This document shows positions 37,747 to 43,776 of a stretch of DNA of 64,000 nt, piece after piece; positions within the stretch are counted from its first letter, which is position 1; every line of letters starts with the position of its first letter. The notes under the pieces were generated by a model that saw nothing but the letters and a program-made list of their open reading frames with translations, had not been told where the DNA came from and did not search any database. Both the position numbers and the translations under genes were made by a program. Source of the stretch: Trichodelitschia bisporula. Taxonomy: Eukaryota. The stretch spans positions 809,420-873,419 of the forward strand of contig ML996690.1 of assembly GCA_010356995.1 (NCBI GenBank), read 5' to 3'.

Positions 37747-38925
37747 CCATATGTATGTTTAATGAAAGTCTTGAAGGTAACTTTGCCTGTGCTTCTGAAG
37801 CCGAGTGTATGATGACAGGCGTCGTTTCGCTTGGCATGAAGGCCCGGGACGTCGGACAGAAGAGCCAACGGTATCCAGGTTATCTTACGACAGGGTCCCC
37901 ATTAGCCCTACTACTCAGAAGATACAAAGCCCCTGTCGAGATCGCGGTCGGCATTTTGCAGAGAACCAAGGTGAATGGAAATCGGTTCATTAAGATATTT
38001 CCCACGAGGTAAGCCTTGTCCAGGTTTCAAGGTTGACACCCCTCGTATGTAGGTCGAATTTGTTCCTCAATACTTCTTTGCACGGGCAATATGCGGAAGA
38101 AGATGGTGAATTTGATACTTCACGGGGGTAACGTCCAGTTGCCAGCCCTGCTGCCCAAAACGGGTGCAGCAGTCGCCCACAGCATCGGCCCTACCCGCAT
38201 CTTTCCGCGTTTGATGCAAGCAGATACGATATCGGAAAGGACTTTGGTGTATGCAGCACTGCAGCTCCGCTCAAACAAGCAGGTATCTGGCAGAGAAGCA
38301 ACAGATCTCGATCCCTGTGGGAAATAGCCGGGATTAGGCTGAAATACATGAATGGAGTAAGAAACTGCCTCTTGCCGTGGGCGGATGTGGAAACGGAGAG
38401 GAGACTCCAAATCAAATTACGATAAAGCTGTTGGCTGACGGCAAAGGCCCTCCTGCACGTAAAGTCCTTATTCATGAAGTTGGACCTTGTGAGCAGGCTG
38501 AAAGCGAGAGTGGGATGGGGATGGAGGAGGAGCGAGCATTACGTAGTGTCGCTCGCAAACCTTTGGCGAGGAAATTCGCGCACCAAAGACGCTTGGCGGC
38601 GAAGGAGAGGCGCGACGCAGCAAGCAAGCCCTGGACCGGCAAACCCCGTGCTTGCATCAAAAAGGCGACGACTTTCTTGCTCTGTCTCCGAACACCTTTT
38701 GCTCCGTCAAATCCTCTCCTCACTGCGCTCTCGTCCTGCATTGCCTTCTGCCGTTGCTCTCTTATTGATAGTCTCTTCCCTAGCTCTCTTCCAAAAATTG
38801 TGTAAATCTCCGCCTGATCGTCGATCTCCCGGAGCGCGCCTTTGCCCCGACGTCAAAAGGATCCACTTTTCCACCAAAAAATTATTCTCTTGATATTGGC
38901 CACGCGACCGCGAAAGCTTCATCGA

Positions 38926-38949
38926 ATGTACAAACGTGCCTTACTCTGA
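38926..38949 (+). promoter_or_regulatory. Short AUG uORF (MYKRALL*) upstream of AdoMetDC
   Basis: ATG TAC AAA CGT GCC TTA CTC TGA seen directly; whether it lies inside the transcript is unverified. Confidence 0.4.
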
Positions 38950-38982
38950 TCACCACTTCACCTAGCCACTCAGCCTTCTTCC

Positions 38983-39106
38983 ATGCGACGCGAGGATCTG
39001 GTTCGCTTTCTGTCTAAGCCCGCGAAGTGAGTGGCGTTACTGCTTCATTCTCCCACACGAACCGCAAATTCTGACCCCCCCCCCCCCCCCCCCCAGGCCC
39101 AGATAA
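38983..39106 (+). promoter_or_regulatory. Spliced AUG uORF MRREDLVRFLSKPAKPR* spanning leader intron 39027-39096
   Basis: GTGAGT donor at 39027, CTGAC branch at 39071, C20 tract 39075-39094, CAG acceptor ending 39096; spliced frame ends AAG CCC AGA TAA. Confidence 0.65.
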
Positions 39107-39225
39107 CACCAGCTACTTGCGCCCCAAGCCACCAATCTACACACGCATAGCAGATATCCTCGTCTGCTAGACCCGATACTTGTACGGGTATCGGACTCTA
39201 CGGTCGAGGCCCTAGAATAGCCACA

Positions 39226-39276
39226 ATTTCTCCGCACAAGTCCTCTTTCGTCCCGCTTTCGGCCCGCCCGCCCTAG
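39226..39276 (+). promoter_or_regulatory. Candidate AUU-initiated uORF (M)SPHKSSFVPLSARPP*
   Basis: GCCACA-ATT initiation context; 16 sense codons ending CGC CCG CCC TAG. Confidence 0.55.
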
Positions 39277-39411
39277 CACCCCTCCGGGAGACTCTTGATA
39301 CTCCGGTCTGCTGCTGGCAAAAGCCAGCCTCCTCTTTAGCCCCACAGTTCGTGGGCCATTCGGGTGGTCGAGCTTCGTACACTAGCCAGCCTCATCAACA
39401 AACAGCTGGAG

Positions 39412-40929
39412 ATGGTCACCATTGATATCCCCAAGAACTACACAGCCTCGCCGTCGTCCTTTGTAGGGACGCCACATCTCACTATCAATCGCGACGCGAC
39501 TATCGATCTCGACTCTACCAATGCATTCGAGGGCCCTGAGAAACTGCTAGAGGTATGGTTCAGCCCGTCCGCAGCTGCCCTGCCGGCCTCATGCTCGCCG
39601 CTGGGCTTGAAGGTGGTCTCGCAGGATACCTGGAAGGGGATGCTTGATCTCGTCAATTGCCAAGTGCTGTCCGTCATCGAGTCGGAGCATGTTGACGCCT
39701 ACCTCCTGTCCGAATCAAGTATGTTCGTATTCTCGCACAAGCTTGTGCTTAAGACCTGCGGGACGACCACTCTCCTCCTTGGCCTCCCACGCATTCTCGA
39801 GATTGCTGCTCTAGATGCCGGTTTTCCGCATGTTGGCGCCAACCTCATGGCGTGCAATCCCGCTGCCGCTACTCCATACCGTGTCTTCTACAGTCGCAAG
39901 AACTTTCTCTTCCCGAACAAGCAACGCGGTCCGCACCGCAGCTGGCGCGATGAGGTGCGTTTCATGGACCGTCTCTTCTTGAGCGGCAGTGCGTATATGA
40001 TCGGTAAGATGAACGGGGAGCACTGGTATCTGTACATCACCGGGCCGGACACGCGCCTCACCCCTCCTGCGACCCCTGATCACGACATGTCGCCAACGGA
40101 AACGAAGTTCATGTCGCTGCCGGAGCGCCAGCGCGTCGTCGGCTTTTCAGACGCGGCTGAAGATGACGAAACGCTTGAGGTGCTTATGACGGATCTTGAC
40201 GAGCAGAATGCTCGCCAGTTCTACCTGGAGGACGCCAGCGCCGTTGCTGAAGGCCGCTTCTTCCAGAGGGCGCGCGATGCTCGCCACAAGAAGGCCGCGC
40301 TTGCGACCATTGGCGAGGAGAAAGCTACCAGCGATGGCACATTCGACGTTTTCGTACAGACGTCGTCTGACCATGAGGAGTTTTCATCGGAAGATGACAG
40401 CGAAAGTTTCCCGGAGATTACCGAAGGCCACGCTCTTGGCACCGTCGTTTCCGATTCTTGCGGCTTGTCCGACGTCTATCCTGTGTCCAAGTATCCCGAT
40501 GCTCGCATCGACTCGTACCTCTTTTCACCCTGCGGCTTCTCCGCCAACGGCGTCATCCCCGCCCCCGCGGGCACGAAGGCCACACACTACTTCACGGTTC
40601 ACGTGACGCCGGAGCCGCACTGCTCGTACGCGTCCTTCGAGACTAACGTTCCGTCGCGCCAGAGCGGCCGCGAGACGGCAGACCTCGTGGAGCAGGTGGT
40701 ACGCATCTTTAAGCCGGGCCGGTTCACGGTGACGCTGTTTGAGGCGCAGCCAGGCGAGCGGGACGGGCTCGCCGCGGCGAAGCGCTCGGGACGCATGGAT
40801 TCCATCGAGGGCTACAAGCGCATTGACCGCATTGTCCACGACCTCGACGGGTACGATCTCGTGTTCCGGTACTACGAGCGGCTGGACTGGAAGGGCGGGG
40901 CGCCGAGGCTCGGCGAGGTGGAACATTGA
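39412..40929 (+). CDS. SPE2: S-adenosylmethionine decarboxylase proenzyme (intronless CDS)
   Basis: AFEGPEKLLEVWF; self-cleavage motif YLLSE-SSMFV; LKTCGTT; FSPCGFSANG; TVHVTPEPHCSYASFETN. Confidence 0.97.
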   Translation: MVTIDIPKNYTASPSSFVGTPHLTINRDATIDLDSTNAFEGPEKLLEVWFSPSAAALPASCSPLGLKVVSQDTWKGMLDLVNCQVLSVIESEHVDAYLLSESSMFVFSHKLVLKTCGTTTLLLGLPRILEIAALDAGFPHVGANLMACNPAAATPYRVFYSRKNFLFPNKQRGPHRSWRDEVRFMDRLFLSGSAYMIGKMNGEHWYLYITGPDTRLTPPATPDHDMSPTETKFMSLPERQRVVGFSDAAEDDETLEVLMTDLDEQNARQFYLEDASAVAEGRFFQRARDARHKKAALATIGEEKATSDGTFDVFVQTSSDHEEFSSEDDSESFPEITEGHALGTVVSDSCGLSDVYPVSKYPDARIDSYLFSPCGFSANGVIPAPAGTKATHYFTVHVTPEPHCSYASFETNVPSRQSGRETADLVEQVVRIFKPGRFTVTLFEAQPGERDGLAAAKRSGRMDSIEGYKRIDRIVHDLDGYDLVFRYYERLDWKGGAPRLGEVEH

Positions 40930-43776
40930 GGTGGATGGGTTGAATTTGGCACCAAATTGTGATGGAGGGATTGGTGGAGCGATGACTGATGATTGTGATC
41001 ATGCTTGCTGCGTTCGCGTTGAGTGTTTTGCGCTCGTTCCGTGGCCTTTGCGCTTGTTCTGATGATCTGCGTACTCACGATGAATTTGATCCCTATGCCT
41101 GCTTTCGATCGGCCGGATTTCGTGAGTTGCATATCTACTCGCGACCGCGACGTGCGTTAACGACAGTCCGAATCAAGCTGACCGCTGACCTCACGAACAG
41201 CTTCGGACCTTTCCGGACCTCACAGTGTGTACCTATCCTTCCAAGACACTTTTTGGTCCAAAGAAGTGACTGTGAATGGGATTTCTGCCCCCAACCTCTT
41301 GCTGACACGTCAAGATCGGCATAATGCGGGGAAAAATTCCACTCGAGGTCCCAAGAAGATTGGAACTACGAGGTTGAGTCCGGAGAAGCAGCTCCGCAGC
41401 CCCTCACCTTCACAATGAGAACGTTTGCCAGACTTCCTGCGGTCAAGGAGGTTGTTACCAATCTGTTTCTCCAAGCATTTTACGGATCCCTCTCCGCTCC
41501 CTCCCAGGACTTGAGATTGGTCCATTGTGCCGATCGTAATATATGGATTGGACCGCAAGGTCCTGTACGATGCCCTGAGCCGGCCCCACGGGCACCGTCT
41601 GGCTCCTTTCCAAGCTGTCGGCTTCGTCGATGGACCCTGAGCTCTTCTCAACTTTGACATCGAACGCTAATATCTCACGCTAGGCATCCTGACCTCAGTT
41701 TGACATACGTCCTCACCTCCACGGGTTATTTCCCAGATGCGCCAACAAAATGAAACTATCCGCTACCGATCTCAACAACATGGCCCAACCACTTGGGCCT
41801 CCCTTGCACACCTTGCTACTTCACAGCAACACAAGTGGCATGACAGTGTTCATGCAATTCTCGGTTCATTGGCTGTATAAACTGAATCGGAATGTCAAAG
41901 TCCCAAGTCAAGTATGGCTACATGCCGATCAGACCTCCCTAAGCCCGGGTGGTGCCCTCGGACGTGCCTCCGCTGGAGTCCTCACCGTTATGCTTGACAC
42001 CAATGGGGAACTGGACTACTGGAATCTGCGCTTGCTTGTTGATGAGACGAATACGAACAGCATTCTTTAGAATGAACAACCCTTGGATGCTCTCAGCTTG
42101 AATAGACAATCCAGAGTCGTCTATCTCGATGCGGCATACTTTGGCTTCCCCAAGGCATCATTTCCAGTCGTTACCATAAACATAATTTTCCGATTTTACA
42201 TCTTGCCATGATGCAGTTGACTAGACTGCTTCTCATTTCACGGCTGATATGGGCCCTCTGAGCTCAAGGTGCGGTCCGTCCGTTTACTTAAATTAACTAA
42301 CTCTAATAGGCGTAATCTTATGCAGTCCTGTTGTGGTCACAGTTACGCAGTTCGCCACATCAATCTCTTTGTCTAGCTCCGTTGTGTCCTGCGAGTCCAA
42401 CTCATCAACCTTTGCTTTCGTTCCTTCCAGCGACACAACAGCGGCCTTTGAATCTGAGACTTCATCGAGCTCGTCCACGTCCCAAAGTACGGGTATTTCC
42501 TCCTTTCACACCACCTCGTCCACTGCAGCTCTGCTAGCAGGCCTTGCGGCCCCCTTGCCTTTCCGTCACAGCTTGAGCACGTCGTGGAGTTCCTCCGGCC
42601 TCGCGACGGGCTCCACAACATCTGAGCAGTTGTCTGGCTCTTCGGTCGAACCCCTTTCCACTATGCTTTCGCCTTCCAGCTCCCCTGGCCAGAGCTCGGT
42701 TATGGAAGAGTCAGCTTCTAGTTCCCTCACTCAAACATCGTCGAGCATCCCGTCTGCTTCTAGCCCTGAGATCGCGGCCACCCCGTCCTCGTCGGCCAGT
42801 CTGAGCATTTCTGTATTCACGACGAATTCGTCCACAAATGCCTCCGTTTCCATTCCGTCAAGTTCGACGGAACTGGTCTCGAGTAATCCTTTCATCTCTA
42901 GCAGTTCCTTAACCTCGAACGGTGTCTCCGCCTCCTTCAGCCCCGTCTATGACCTGCAGTTCTCCCACCATTAGCAACGCTTCCTTACATAGCAACTCGA
43001 CCTCAAGTGGCGCTTCTACCTCAGATCGCGCTTCGCTCTCAAGTAGCACCTCTACATCTGGCAATGGACCTCCATCAAGCATTCTTTCACACAGTAGCCA
43101 GCCCGCTCCCAGTAGCTCTTCGGTCTCGACAACTATTTCTTCAGCTGGAACTTCCTCAACACAAACTACTTCCTCTGGAACTCCTTCTCTGAGCTCAGCC
43201 TCCGGTAACTTTTCTTCGAGCTCCGCTTCCACGACATCGTCCGTTCCGAGCAGTCCTCTATCAACTAGCAGTTCAATAACTTCCATCTCTCAAACCTCGC
43301 CATCCAGCGGTGCGATATCAATATCCGCGAGTTCACCGGCTGCACCAGTTGGTACTAGCTCTTCGGCCGACGCTTCATCCTCAAGTCAGACTTCAGGTTC
43401 CATTCCGAGCTCCCTCTCGGTGTCGAATACTACACTTTATTCTGCGGATGTTTCAGACCTCTCGAAGTCAGCATTGGATTCCACATCGGCTTCAGTACCG
43501 GCTTCAATGGCCGCATCAGCGTCTACTTGGTCCGGTTCGTCAATCTCAGGCTCTTCCGCTTCATCGATAAGTTTAAGCTCCCCCGTATCCTCCACCAACC
43601 CACAATCATCCACGTCTACCGATAGCGGGTCCGCGTCTACCAGCCCTCTGAGCCTTGGCTCCTCTCTACCGATTTCGCCATCGAGCAACTTGTCCACGAA
43701 CTCCTCCACTCCCGCCTCGTCTTCTCCTAGCAGCATTATCTCCTCTGGTACAACGTCTAGTTCGACAACAGCTACA

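What the first reader, a model, noticed from the sequence alone, without database searches (positions are those of the whole stretch)
39217..39276. Candidate AUU-initiated uORF ending Arg-Pro-Pro-stop in the AdoMetDC (SPE2) leader
Seen: about 185 nt upstream of the SPE2 AUG, an ATT at 39226 sits in GCCACA context (essentially the fungal CACA-AUG consensus). It opens (M)SPHKSSFVPLSARPP-TAG. An in-frame ATA in A-3/G+4 context at 39217 is an alternative start, and the frame has no AUG back to the stop at 39148. Known: AdoMetDC mRNAs are regulated by uORFs (mammalian MAGDIS, plant uORFs ending Pro-Ser-stop), and antizyme-inhibitor/ODC mRNAs carry AUU-initiated upstream coding regions whose proline motifs stall ribosomes when polyamines inhibit eIF5A. 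I recall that conserved leader elements have been reported for Pezizomycotina AdoMetDC, so this may be partly described. Inference: this is a non-AUG, Pro-Pro-stop polyamine sensor that standard annotation would miss.
Basis: partly seen in the sequence, partly recalled or inferred. Interest (0 to 1): 0.85.

Follow-up and report, generated by a model that had tools for sequence, protein, structure and literature searches.

The report
Conserved AUU-started uORF in fungal AdoMetDC leader
Ahead of a fungal polyamine-synthesis gene lies a tiny second upstream reading frame that starts at AUU instead of AUG and ends Arg-Pro-Pro-stop; it is conserved in nearly all related fungal leaders examined, so it is very likely a real, so far undescribed translational control element.

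Summary
In detail: ATT 39226 in gccacaATT opens ISPHKSSFVPLSARPP-TAG (39226-39276), 186 nt before the AdoMetDC (SPE2) ATG at 39412.

It lies 240 nt further upstream (38983-39026 + 39097-39106, MRREDLVRFLSKPAKPR*). A 70-nt intron splits it, and transcript contigs show that intron removed.

I used that uORF as a probe and fetched 110 metagenomic fungal leaders.
- Start codon: ATT in 58, ATA in 2, never ATC or ATG.
- Context: A at -3 in 60 of 60.
- Stop: TAA in 58 and TAG in 2, followed by C in 57.
- Selection: third positions vary (pN/pS 0.39, against 1.4-1.5 in the other frames), and indels are whole codons.
- AUG depletion: 55 of 60 intercistronic regions contain no ATG at all.

So this is a conserved, non-AUG, peptide-constrained uORF. 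Ten full-text searches found no paper describing it, but several key papers are not held. That it is translated and senses polyamines through eIF5A-dependent Pro-Pro-stop stalling is inferred from AZIN1/ODC and HOL1; it is not shown here.

The alternative ATA start at 39217 is not conserved. Conserved RNA helices flank the uORF.

The parts
38651..39411 (+). 5' leader of the SPE2/AdoMetDC mRNA. It is at least about 690 nt after splicing; the true 5' end is unknown.
   Evidence: Spliced transcript-like contigs of runs X1 and X2 (one sample) start at 38689 and 38651 and run into the coding region (table 8).
38983..39026 (+). uORF1 exon part: ATG ... GCG AA. This is the published Pezizomycotina AdoMetDC uORF. 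Its AUG has T at -3.
   Evidence: The peptide MRREDLVRFLSKPAKPR* is identical to the Pyrenophora, Phaeosphaeria and Cochliobolus rows of PMC2811004 Suppl. Fig. 1A. The -3 base is a pyrimidine in 74 of 74 distinct uORF1 sequences.
39027..39096 (+). 70-nt leader intron inside uORF1 (GTGAGT ... CTGAC ... C20 ... CAG). It falls after the second base of the Lys15 codon.
   Evidence: GT..AG joint 39026->39097 in contigs of X1 and X2 (table 5). The same intron position occurs in 107 of 110 metagenomic loci; the other 3 are already spliced.
39097..39106 (+). uORF1 second exon part: G CCC AGA TAA.
39150..39209 (+). Conserved structured RNA with four helices. S1 is GCAGA 39150-54 with TCTGC 39163-67. 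S2 is CCTCG 39158-62 with CGAGG 39205-09; it crosses S1, so a pseudoknot is possible. A middle helix pairs AGA 39169-71 with TCT 39197-99. The inner hairpin pairs CCGATAC 39173-79 with GTATCGG 39188-94.
   Evidence: 89.4% of cells are paired, against 27-41% when the 3' partners are slid. 11 of 20 pairs change on both sides, and S2 does so at 5 of 5 pairs. (window fold): -27 kcal/mol, z -2.5; that fold contains S1 and the inner hairpin but not S2. Where the S2 3' strand was found by motif, it ends 14-20 nt before the AUU in 47 of 48 leaders.
39220..39228 (+). Initiation context GCCACA plus the AUU start codon (ATT 39226-39228).
   Evidence: C at -4, A at -3 and the AT of ATT are invariant in 53 aligned distinct sequences. 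Start codon: ATT 58, ATA 2, ATC 0 of 60. A at -3 in 60 of 60.
   Evidence: See Best explanation.
39313..39328 (+). Nearly invariant hairpin GCTGGC-AAAA-GCCAGC.
   Evidence: Helix 1 is 99.1% paired across 58 sequences, but it hardly varies, so this shows conservation rather than covariation. Also.
39341..39355 (+). Weaker hairpin CCCAC-AGTTC-GTGGG. The GTGGGCC box is highly conserved.
   Evidence: Helix 2 is 78.6% paired. Also.
39412..40929 (+). Main ORF: S-adenosylmethionine decarboxylase proenzyme, 505 aa, with no intron in the coding region.
   Evidence: Pfam PF01536, E 6.8e-118. The transcript contig is continuous from 39097 to 41151. The main AUG has G at -3 in 54 of 55 and G at +4 in 52 of 55 distinct sequences.

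Best explanation
Positions 39226-39276 are a real, evolutionarily conserved second upstream ORF (uORF2) of the Pezizomycotina AdoMetDC (SPE2) mRNA. It has 15-17 codons, starts at a near-cognate AUU (rarely AUA) in an optimal CA-x-x context, and encodes a constrained peptide, consensus I-P-x-x-K-x-F-F-I-P-L-S-A-R-P-P, that ends Arg-Pro-Pro-UAA-C.

It lies downstream of the published AUG uORF1, whose AUG has a poor context and so should allow leaky scanning. It also lies 14-20 nt downstream of a conserved structured RNA.

Proposed mechanism (inferred, not shown): most scanning 43S complexes pass the weak AUU and reach the SPE2 AUG. The few that initiate must form a Pro-Pro bond and then terminate after Pro, and both steps need eIF5A. 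When spermidine is high, eIF5A function is impaired and the ribosome stalls at Pro-Pro-stop. That blocks the scanning complexes behind it and, through queuing, raises initiation at the AUU. AdoMetDC synthesis falls as a result. This would be a negative feedback loop of the kind described for the AZIN1/ODC upstream conserved coding region and the yeast HOL1 uORF.

My sub-confidences: a conserved coding uORF, about 0.9; AUU is the start, about 0.8; polyamine/eIF5A-dependent stalling is its function, about 0.55.
For: Setting (shown):
- uORF2 lies in the mature mRNA. Spliced transcript contigs cover 38651/38689-41225 without a break from 39097 to 41151.
- Two metatranscript-like loci, L023 and L041, carry spliced uORF1, uORF2 and the SPE2 start on one contig.

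Conservation (shown):
- A uORF1 pattern scan returned 110 loci.
- 72 loci plus the window reach the SPE2 start. That gives 61 distinct intercistronic regions.
- 60 of the 61 hold a frame ending RPP* (LPP* in L012) at the same place.
- 19 of the 38 remaining, mostly truncated, loci also show it.

Coding signature (shown):
- The conservation profile has a 3-nt period across 39226-39276.
- Column entropy at codon positions 1/2/3 is 0.67/0.57/1.22.
- pN/pS is 0.386 in this frame, against 1.44 and 1.55 in the other two.
- All gaps in the MAFFT alignment are 3-nt multiples, and the CC of both Pro codons and the TA of the stop are invariant.
- There are 44 distinct peptides in 30-42 sequence clusters.

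Start codon (shown):
- ATT 58, ATA 2, ATC 0 of 60.
- For comparison, internal Ile codons of the same uORF are 25 ATT and 24 ATC, and the first 40 SPE2 codons use 106 ATC, 66 ATT and 15 ATA.
- A at -3 in 60 of 60.
- No in-frame ATG in any open frame.
- An in-frame stop lies only 5 codons upstream of the ATT in L018.
- 55 of 60 intercistronic regions (305-531 nt) have no ATG in any frame (all).
- The frame upstream of the ATT is not conserved at the peptide level: the structured region is read in two different frames in different species.

Contrasting contexts (shown): the uORF1 AUG has a pyrimidine at -3 in 74 of 74, and the main AUG has G at -3 in 54 of 55.

Termination context (shown): TAA in 58 of 60, and the next base is C in 57 of 60.

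Basis for the mechanism (literature, by analogy):
- PMC2811004 sections 4 and 6. AdoMetDC uORFs nearly always have a penultimate Pro. ODC/AZIN1 upstream conserved coding regions start at conserved AUU in good context, carry adjacent prolines near the C-terminus, and repress in a spermidine-dependent way.
- PMC11550727 (passages only) summarises the PPW and PS-stop stalling-and-queuing model for AZIN1 and HOL1.
Against: - Nothing here shows translation. The only sequencing runs listed are transcript-like contigs, and no ribosome profiling or reporter data could be reached.
- Polyamine responsiveness rests only on analogy.
- AUU is normally a weak start, so the size of the effect is unknown.
- The AUU lies 45 nt from the last Pro codon, which is not an obvious multiple of a ribosome footprint, so simple queuing onto the AUU is not self-evident (my reasoning).
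- Exceptions exist: L004 has no such frame, L065 has ATC and ends RSP*, and L012 ends LPP*.
- The window itself uses TAG rather than TAA, and it lacks a 10-bp hairpin that most other leaders have downstream.
- All loci were selected because they carry a canonical uORF1. They are unnamed metagenome contigs and are not phylogenetically independent (30-42 clusters). Breadth beyond uORF1-bearing leaders is therefore untested, and counts overstate the number of independent lineages.
- The uORF2 frame is also depleted of stops upstream of the AUU. That leaves room for additional or alternative entry into the frame.
Confidence: 0.6

Rival explanations
1. uORF2 is a real, translated, conserved uORF, but it is not a polyamine sensor. 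It could act constitutively as a brake on scanning or a reinitiation spacer. It could also report general start-codon stringency (eIF1/eIF5 balance, eIF2 availability) rather than spermidine.
For: All the conservation evidence is equally compatible with this reading. A conserved near-cognate start in optimal context is also the hallmark of stringency-sensing uORFs such as those of eIF1 and eIF5; those papers appeared only in search listings and were not read. Nothing here measures a polyamine response.
Against: The gene is the committed step of spermidine synthesis. The invariant part of the peptide is exactly the R-P-P-stop end. According to PMC2811004 and PMC11550727, this is the motif class tied to polyamine and eIF5A control in AZIN1, ODC, HOL1 and other AdoMetDC leaders. 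A pure spacer would not need a constrained peptide (pN/pS 0.39).
Confidence: 0.2
2. The conserved frame is translated, but entry is mainly not at the AUU. Ribosomes could enter upstream, either at other near-cognate codons or by readthrough of the uORF1 UAA-C stop. The ATT would then be conserved as an Ile codon or context element for another reason.
For: Stops upstream of the AUU are depleted in the uORF2 frame: 23 against 52 and 48 in the other frames across 42 clusters (Wilcoxon p 2e-4). The AUU shares the uORF1 frame in 23 of 42 clusters (chi-square p 0.013), and the frame is open all the way in 18 of 42.
Against: The window is out of frame with uORF1 and has an in-frame TAG at 39148. L018 has a stop 5 codons before the ATT. 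Peptide-level conservation begins at the ATT, and the region upstream is read in different frames in different species. ATC is never used at this position, although it makes up half of internal Ile codons. C at -4 and A at -3 are invariant, which fits a start site.
Confidence: 0.1
3. The block is conserved as RNA (a structure or a protein-binding site) and is not translated.
For: The leader is rich in conserved RNA helices on both sides of the block, so RNA-level constraint clearly operates in this region.
Against: Conservation has a 3-nt period. pN/pS is low only in this frame. All indels are whole codons. Both the stop and the start are conserved. There are 44 different peptide versions that share the same chemistry. 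An RNA element would not tolerate free third positions while fixing positions 1 and 2.
Confidence: 0.04
4. It is a chance near-cognate ORF in a C-rich leader.
For: In a single sequence, Pro-Pro-stop frames are not rare: 12.3% of shuffles have one.
Against: 60 of 61 distinct orthologous leaders keep it with the same start, length and end.
Confidence: 0.01

Closest known systems
Upstream conserved coding region (uCC) of AZIN1 and ODC homologues (Ivanov, Loughran & Atkins 2008). I read only the account of it in PMC2811004 section 6 and PMC11550727; the original paper is not held.
   Same: Both lie in a polyamine-pathway mRNA leader. Both have a conserved AUU start in good context and no AUG. Peptide conservation is concentrated at the C-terminus, with two adjacent prolines. 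Most ribosomes are expected to scan past the start.
   Different: The host gene here is AdoMetDC, not an ODC homologue. The ORF has 15-17 codons instead of 22-100. The prolines sit directly before the stop (RPP*) rather than in an internal PPW or a ...PS* ending. It is preceded by a separate AUG uORF and a structured RNA. No functional data exist.
Pezizomycotina AdoMetDC uORF, consensus MSPKDLLRFLSKPAKPR* (Ivanov, Atkins & Michael 2010, PMC2811004 Suppl. Fig. 1A).
   Same: It sits in the same leader, in the same fungi, and is of similar size (17 codons). It has a proline near the end (KPR*).
   Different: It is a different element, present in this window at 38983-39106. It starts at AUG in a poor context, encodes an unrelated peptide and is split by a conserved intron. 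The 2010 text and supplement show only this one uORF for fungi. They do not mention an intron, a hairpin or a second uORF.
Nematode AdoMetDC uORF MGPDRKTRILVLYRRPP* (PMC2811004 Suppl. Fig. 1B).
   Same: It lies in an AdoMetDC leader, has 17 codons and ends R-P-P-stop. Compared by eye, with no gaps and no statistics, it lines up with the fungal uORF2 consensus at P2, R4 (frequent), K5, L11, R14, P15 and P16.
   Different: It starts at AUG and is the only uORF shown for those mRNAs. Homology cannot be established for peptides this short and was not tested statistically here.
S. cerevisiae HOL1 uORF (...PS*) and the mammalian AMD1 uORF MAGDIS*. HOL1 I read only through the PMC11550727 passages, because the primary HOL1 paper is not held. 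MAGDIS I read through PMC2811004 section 4.
   Same: Both are short uORFs in polyamine genes whose termination is slowed by polyamines, which blocks scanning to the main ORF.
   Different: They have different peptides. Both start at AUG.

Membership tests
Published Pezizomycotina AdoMetDC uORF (uORF1; PMC2811004 Suppl. Fig. 1A) | AUG-initiated 17-codon ORF with consensus MSPKDLLRFLSKPAKPR* | tested here: not met
The published uORF is a separate element in the window, at 38983-39026 + 39097-39106.
Published Pezizomycotina AdoMetDC uORF (uORF1; PMC2811004 Suppl. Fig. 1A) | Lies in the 5' leader of an AdoMetDC mRNA of a Pezizomycotina fungus | tested here: met
   The main ORF matches PF01536. Transcript contigs include the leader. 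The window's uORF1 peptide is identical to three Pleosporales rows of the supplement.
uCC of ODC/AZIN1 homologues (as described in PMC2811004 section 6) | Located upstream of an ornithine decarboxylase homologue | tested here: not met
   The downstream gene is AdoMetDC.
uCC of ODC/AZIN1 homologues (as described in PMC2811004 section 6) | [quoted passage not shown] | tested here: met
   ATT 58 and ATA 2 of 60. A at -3 in 60 of 60. No in-frame ATG in any. C at -4, A at -3 and the AT of the start are invariant.
uCC of ODC/AZIN1 homologues (as described in PMC2811004 section 6) | Two adjacent prolines near the C-terminus, with conservation concentrated at the C-terminus | tested here: met
   Pro-Pro-stop occurs in 60 of 61 distinct leaders. 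Positions 1 and 2 of the last three sense codons have entropy of about 0-0.2.
uCC of ODC/AZIN1 homologues (as described in PMC2811004 section 6) | Length of 22 to about 100 codons | tested here: not met
   16 codons in 52 leaders, 15 in 5 and 17 in 3.
uCC of ODC/AZIN1 homologues (as described in PMC2811004 section 6) | Spermidine-enhanced repression that depends on the C-terminal peptide and on the non-AUG start | not testable with these tools
   This needs reporters, toeprinting or ribosome profiling.
AdoMetDC uORFs with a penultimate proline (plants ...PS*, nematodes ...RPP*, fungi ...KPR*; PMC2811004 section 4) | uORF in an AdoMetDC leader whose penultimate residue is proline | tested here: met
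   The ending is ...PP* in 60 of 61 distinct leaders. L065 ends ...SP*.
AdoMetDC uORFs with a penultimate proline (plants ...PS*, nematodes ...RPP*, fungi ...KPR*; PMC2811004 section 4) | AUG initiation | tested here: not met
   None of the 60 has an ATG in the frame.
Plant AdoMetDC leader peptide (the Pfam name AdoMetDC_leader PF08132 comes from earlier scan notes, not from a search here) | Sequence match to the family profile | not tested
   The peptide has 16 residues, below the 20-residue minimum of search_protein_families.

The most novel reading that the evidence does not exclude
The Pezizomycotina AdoMetDC leader may be a composite sensor, not just a leader with one more uORF. Three parts could work together: an AUG uORF in weak context, a possibly pseudoknotted RNA that ends 14-20 nt before the start site, and an AUU-initiated Arg-Pro-Pro-stop arrest peptide. 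The uORF2 frame is also kept open upstream and is often in frame with uORF1. Leaky scanning, uORF1 readthrough or other upstream near-cognate starts could therefore all funnel ribosomes into the same polyamine/eIF5A-sensitive stall. In this reading the RPP-stop peptide is homologous to the nematode AdoMetDC uORF (...RRPP*), which would make it an ancient opisthokont arrest peptide that switched from AUG to AUU in filamentous fungi.
Probability: 0.15. Interest if true: 0.85.

Novelty: new member of a known kind. Interest (0 to 1): 0.68.

Why it matters
AdoMetDC is the committed, rate-limiting step of spermidine and spermine synthesis. In animals and plants its translational control by uORFs is a textbook case.

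For filamentous fungi, the only record I could find in print is one AUG uORF listed in a 2010 supplement, with no mechanism attached. A second, AUU-initiated, Pro-Pro-stop uORF that is conserved at least as strongly would matter in several ways:
- It would extend the non-AUG conserved-uORF design known from ODC/AZIN1 to the other key enzyme of the pathway.
- It would give a concrete, mutable target (start codon, two prolines, neighbouring RNA helices) for testing how fungi sense polyamines through eIF5A.
- It shows that standard annotation and AUG-only uORF surveys miss such elements.

The tandem layout is a weak-context AUG uORF, then a structured RNA, then an optimal-context AUU uORF. That makes it a compact natural system for studying start-codon selection.

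Tried and rejected
- **Own genome:** none is held for this window. Conservation had to come from metagenome contigs.
- **Earlier scan notes:** nothing on this genome or on look-alike sequence. The word search returned only notes on other organisms, and none of them shaped this report.
- **Sequencing runs:** no RNA holder is listed as such. Two runs of one sample, marked 'RNA? (a guess)', are held as contigs. They gave splice joints but cannot show start sites, expression level or ribosome occupancy.
- **Rfam:** nothing relevant in 38600-39500. The only hit is a chance lncRNA match at E 0.48, 9.3 bits against a gathering score of 70.
- **RNAalifold on the whole uORF1-to-AUU alignment:** it predicted no structure. 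The helices were found by eye in the alignment and then counted.
- **ATA 39217 as the start:** rejected as not conserved.
- **Reverse-strand ORFs over the site** (39037-39345 and 39212-39382): nothing supports them. The splice joints are GT..AG on the + strand, and the codon periodicity is in the + frame.
- **Papers not held:** PMC7686025 (a PMC id I recalled for the 2020 Annual Review of Genetics article) and that article's DOI. Also PMC5916843 and PMC8500938, whose ids and titles, the AZIN1 ribosome-queuing and yeast HOL1 papers, come from the reference list. Also PMC2481320, the 2008 PNAS paper on ODC-homologue uORFs, whose id and title come from the reference lists. These could mention uORF2, so the novelty claim is limited to what was searchable.
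- **Hairpin just after the uORF2 stop:** present in many leaders (34 of 55 have MFE <= -4 kcal/mol, mean z -1.35). It is absent or weak in others and in the window (z 0.1), so I did not count it as part of the element.
- **Statistical test of the resemblance to the nematode uORF:** not run. The comparison was made by eye only.
Full report
**1. The observation**

- ATT at 39226-39228 follows gccaca.
- The frame reads (I/M)SPHKSSFVPLSARPP and stops at TAG 39274-39276.
- An in-frame ATA sits at 39217, and the previous in-frame stop is TAG 39148-39150.
- The main ATG is at 39412. Its 505-aa ORF is an S-adenosylmethionine decarboxylase (Pfam PF01536, E 6.8e-118).

In the window alone this is only mildly unusual. 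12.3% of 2000 dinucleotide shuffles of the intercistronic region contain a Pro-Pro-stop frame. 1.7% also have an A(-3) near-cognate codon 10-25 codons upstream. Still, ATA 39217 and ATT 39226 are the only A(-3) near-cognate codons between 39107 and 39411, and both are in this frame.

**2.

Ivanov, Atkins and Michael (2010, PMC2811004) report a conserved uORF in Pezizomycotina AdoMetDC leaders. I read section 4, found passages in other sections, and read both parts of supplementary file 1. Supplementary Figure 1A lists 25 species with the consensus MSPKDLLRFLSKPAKPR*.

It runs from ATG 38983 to GCG AA at 39026, and then G CCC AGA TAA at 39097-39106. The spliced peptide is MRREDLVRFLSKPAKPR*, identical to the Pyrenophora, Phaeosphaeria and Cochliobolus rows.

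The split is real. Contigs of two runs of one sample join 39026 to 39097 (70 nt skipped, GT..AG). They run on unbroken to 41151 and then skip a second 49-nt intron in the 3' region. These contigs start at 38651 and 38689, so the spliced leader is at least about 690 nt and contains both uORFs. The 2010 paper's main text does not mention an intron, a hairpin or a second uORF. The supplement, read in full, shows only this one uORF for fungi.

**3. Orthologous leaders**

No genome is held for the window. I therefore scanned metagenome contigs with a degenerate pattern for eleven codons of uORF1.
- The scan returned 110 loci, and all 110 have an in-frame ATG 12 nt upstream.
- 107 continue with GT at exactly the window's intron position. 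The other three are already spliced, so they look like transcripts.
- 72 loci plus the window reach an SPE2 start. The full-length proteins are 57-69% identical to the window's.
- This gives 61 distinct uORF1-to-SPE2 regions of 305-531 nt.

**4.

A MAFFT conservation profile shows a clear 3-nt period across 39226-39276, and the ATT is matched in at least 90% of leaders.

In 60 of 61 distinct regions a frame at the same place ends ...RPP* (LPP* in L012). The consensus is I-P/S-x-x-K-x-F/S-F-I/V-P-L-S-A-R-P-P*.

Over the last 12 codons:
- Column entropy at codon positions 1/2/3 is 0.67/0.57/1.22.
- pN/pS is 0.386, against 1.44 and 1.55 in the two other frames.

In an independent MAFFT alignment of 53 distinct sequences, every gap is a multiple of three. 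The invariant columns are C at -4, A at -3, the AT of the start, the CC of both Pro codons and the TA of the stop. There are 44 different peptides in 30 to 42 sequence clusters.

Of the 38 loci that could not be parsed to an SPE2 start, 19 also show the frame. Most of the rest end within 300 nt of the uORF1 pattern.

Exceptions:
- L004 has no such frame.
- L065 has an ATC start and ends RSP*.
- L055 and L085 use ATA.

**5. The start**

All figures below are unless stated.
- The codon at the head of the conserved peptide is ATT in 58 and ATA in 2 of 60, and it is never ATC.
- Internal Ile codons of the same uORF are 25 ATT and 24 ATC. The first 40 codons of SPE2 use 106 ATC, 66 ATT and 15 ATA.
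- A at -3 is found in 60 of 60.
- No open frame contains an ATG.
- In L018 an in-frame stop lies five codons upstream of the ATT.
- 55 of 60 intercistronic regions have no ATG in any frame, which fits a leader that must be scanned throughout.

Upstream of the ATT the peptide is not conserved. The structured RNA there is read as ...GYRNL... in some species and as ...RVSES... in others.

The contexts contrast. The uORF1 AUG has a pyrimidine at -3 in 74 of 74 distinct sequences. The SPE2 AUG has G at -3 in 54 of 55.

The ATA at 39217 is not conserved.

I conclude that AUU (rarely AUA) is the start, with about 0.8 confidence.

**6. The end**

The stop is TAA in 58 of 60 (TAG in the window and in L012). 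The next base is C in 57 of 60. Many leaders, though not the window, can form a small hairpin that includes the last bases of the stop: 34 of 55 have MFE <= -4 kcal/mol, with mean z -1.35.

**7. Surroundings**

*Upstream structured RNA.* Between uORF1 and the AUU lies a conserved structured RNA, 39150-39209 in the window, with four helices: S1, S2, a middle helix and an inner hairpin. The parts list gives their sequences and coordinates.
- S2 crosses S1, so a pseudoknot is possible.
- On a 56-sequence alignment, 89.4% of cells pair, against 27-41% when the partners are slid.
- 11 of 20 pairs change on both sides, and S2 does so at all five pairs.
- A clade that has deleted the inner hairpin keeps S2.
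- Where the S2 3' strand was found by motif, it ends 14-20 nt before the AUU in 47 of 48 leaders.

*Downstream of uORF2*:
- A nearly invariant GCTGGC-loop-GCCAGC hairpin at 39313-39328.
- A weaker CCCAC...GTGGG hairpin at 39341-39355.
- In most loci but not in the window, a 10-bp hairpin in which five of eight pairs in its main helix co-vary.

Rfam has nothing for the leader.

**8. Mechanism**

Shown: a conserved, peptide-constrained, non-AUG uORF in the mature leader of the committed enzyme of spermidine synthesis.

Inferred: its function. My reasoning runs as follows.
- PMC2811004 states that AdoMetDC uORFs almost always have a penultimate proline.
- It also states that the upstream conserved coding regions of ODC/AZIN1 homologues start at a conserved AUU in good context, carry adjacent prolines near the C-terminus and repress in a spermidine-enhanced way.
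- PMC11550727 (passages only) summarises the model for AZIN1 and yeast HOL1. Polyamines interfere with eIF5A, so the ribosome stalls at PPW or PS-stop. Scanning ribosomes then queue, and initiation at the weak start rises.

By analogy, I propose the following. Most 43S complexes leak past uORF1 and the AUU. The few that initiate at the AUU stall at Pro-Pro-stop when spermidine is high, and AdoMetDC synthesis falls.

Weak points of this proposal:
- There are no translation data.
- AUU is a weak start.
- The 45-nt distance from the AUU to the last Pro codon is not an obvious ribosome multiple.
- The role of the RNA helices is unknown.

**9. An unexplained extra**

The uORF2 frame is depleted of stops upstream of the AUU: 23 against 52 and 48 in the other frames across 42 clusters (Wilcoxon p 2e-4). 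The AUU shares the uORF1 frame in 23 of 42 clusters (p 0.013), and the frame is open throughout in 18. The window is not one of these.

This leaves room for uORF1 readthrough or extra upstream near-cognate starts feeding the same arrest peptide.

By eye, the nematode AdoMetDC uORF of the 2010 supplement (17 codons...RRPP*) lines up without gaps with uORF2 at seven positions. I did not test this statistically.

**10. Novelty and limits**

Ten full-text searches found no description of a second, AUU-initiated uORF in fungal AdoMetDC leaders. Term look-ups in PMC5487733 and its supplements found none either.

Five look-ups for four other relevant papers failed because they are not held, so prior description cannot be excluded.

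The loci were selected by a canonical uORF1. They are unnamed and partly related to one another. Their uORF1 N-termini match those that the supplement lists for several fungal classes, but I did not determine taxonomy.

I file the element as a new member of a known kind: non-AUG, proline-ended, conserved-peptide uORFs of polyamine genes.

Noticed in passing
window 38983-39106; loci L001-L110: The published AdoMetDC uORF1 is interrupted by an intron after the second base of its Lys15 codon. The position is the same in 107 of 110 loci, with parsed intron lengths of 48-265 nt; the other three loci are already spliced. In the window, an unspliced mRNA would end uORF1 two codons early (AAG TGA). 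The main text and supplement of the 2010 paper (PMC2811004) do not mention the intron.
   Followed up: partly
window 39150-39209: A conserved multi-helix RNA, possibly a pseudoknot, lies between uORF1 and the AUU and ends 14-20 nt before the AUU. One clade deleted the inner hairpin but kept the outer CCTCG:CGAGG stem. Rfam has no match for it.
   Followed up: partly
window 39313-39328 and 39341-39355; alignment A2: There are further conserved hairpins between uORF2 and the SPE2 AUG. A 10-bp co-varying hairpin (type CAGGCGAACA...TGTTCGTCTG) is present in most loci but missing from the window, whose uORF2-to-AUG spacer (135 nt) is the shortest seen.
   Followed up: partly
loci L001-L080: The uORF2 frame is kept free of stops upstream of the AUU, and it is in frame with uORF1 more often than chance predicts. 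This does not hold in the window.
   Followed up: partly
window 39107-39411 and orthologous regions: ATG triplets are strongly depleted: 55 of 60 intercistronic regions of 305-531 nt have none in any frame.
   Followed up: yes
window 38926-38949: A further small AUG uORF (MYKRALL*, weak context) lies within the transcript contigs, upstream of uORF1. A similar CGAATG occurs upstream of uORF1 in L003 and L022. Of 87 distinct 150-nt stretches upstream of uORF1, 55 contain at least one ATG. Transcription start sites are unknown.
   Followed up: no
window 39075-39094: A run of 20 C lies inside the leader intron, just before its 3' splice site. The window is the only source for its length. It may be error-prone in assembly.
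   Followed up: no
window 41152-41200: A 49-nt GT..AG intron lies downstream of the SPE2 stop codon (40927-40929). One transcript contig shows it spliced with only 25 nt on the far side; the other run's contigs stop and start at the same two positions.
   Followed up: no
L004, L065/L104, L012, L055/L085: Natural variants of uORF2 exist. It is absent in L004. L065 starts at ATC and ends RSP*; L104 shares L065's uORF1 and intron start but is cut before uORF2. L012 ends LPP*. L055 and L085 start at ATA, and L055's uORF1 ends KYR* rather than KPR*.
   Followed up: partly
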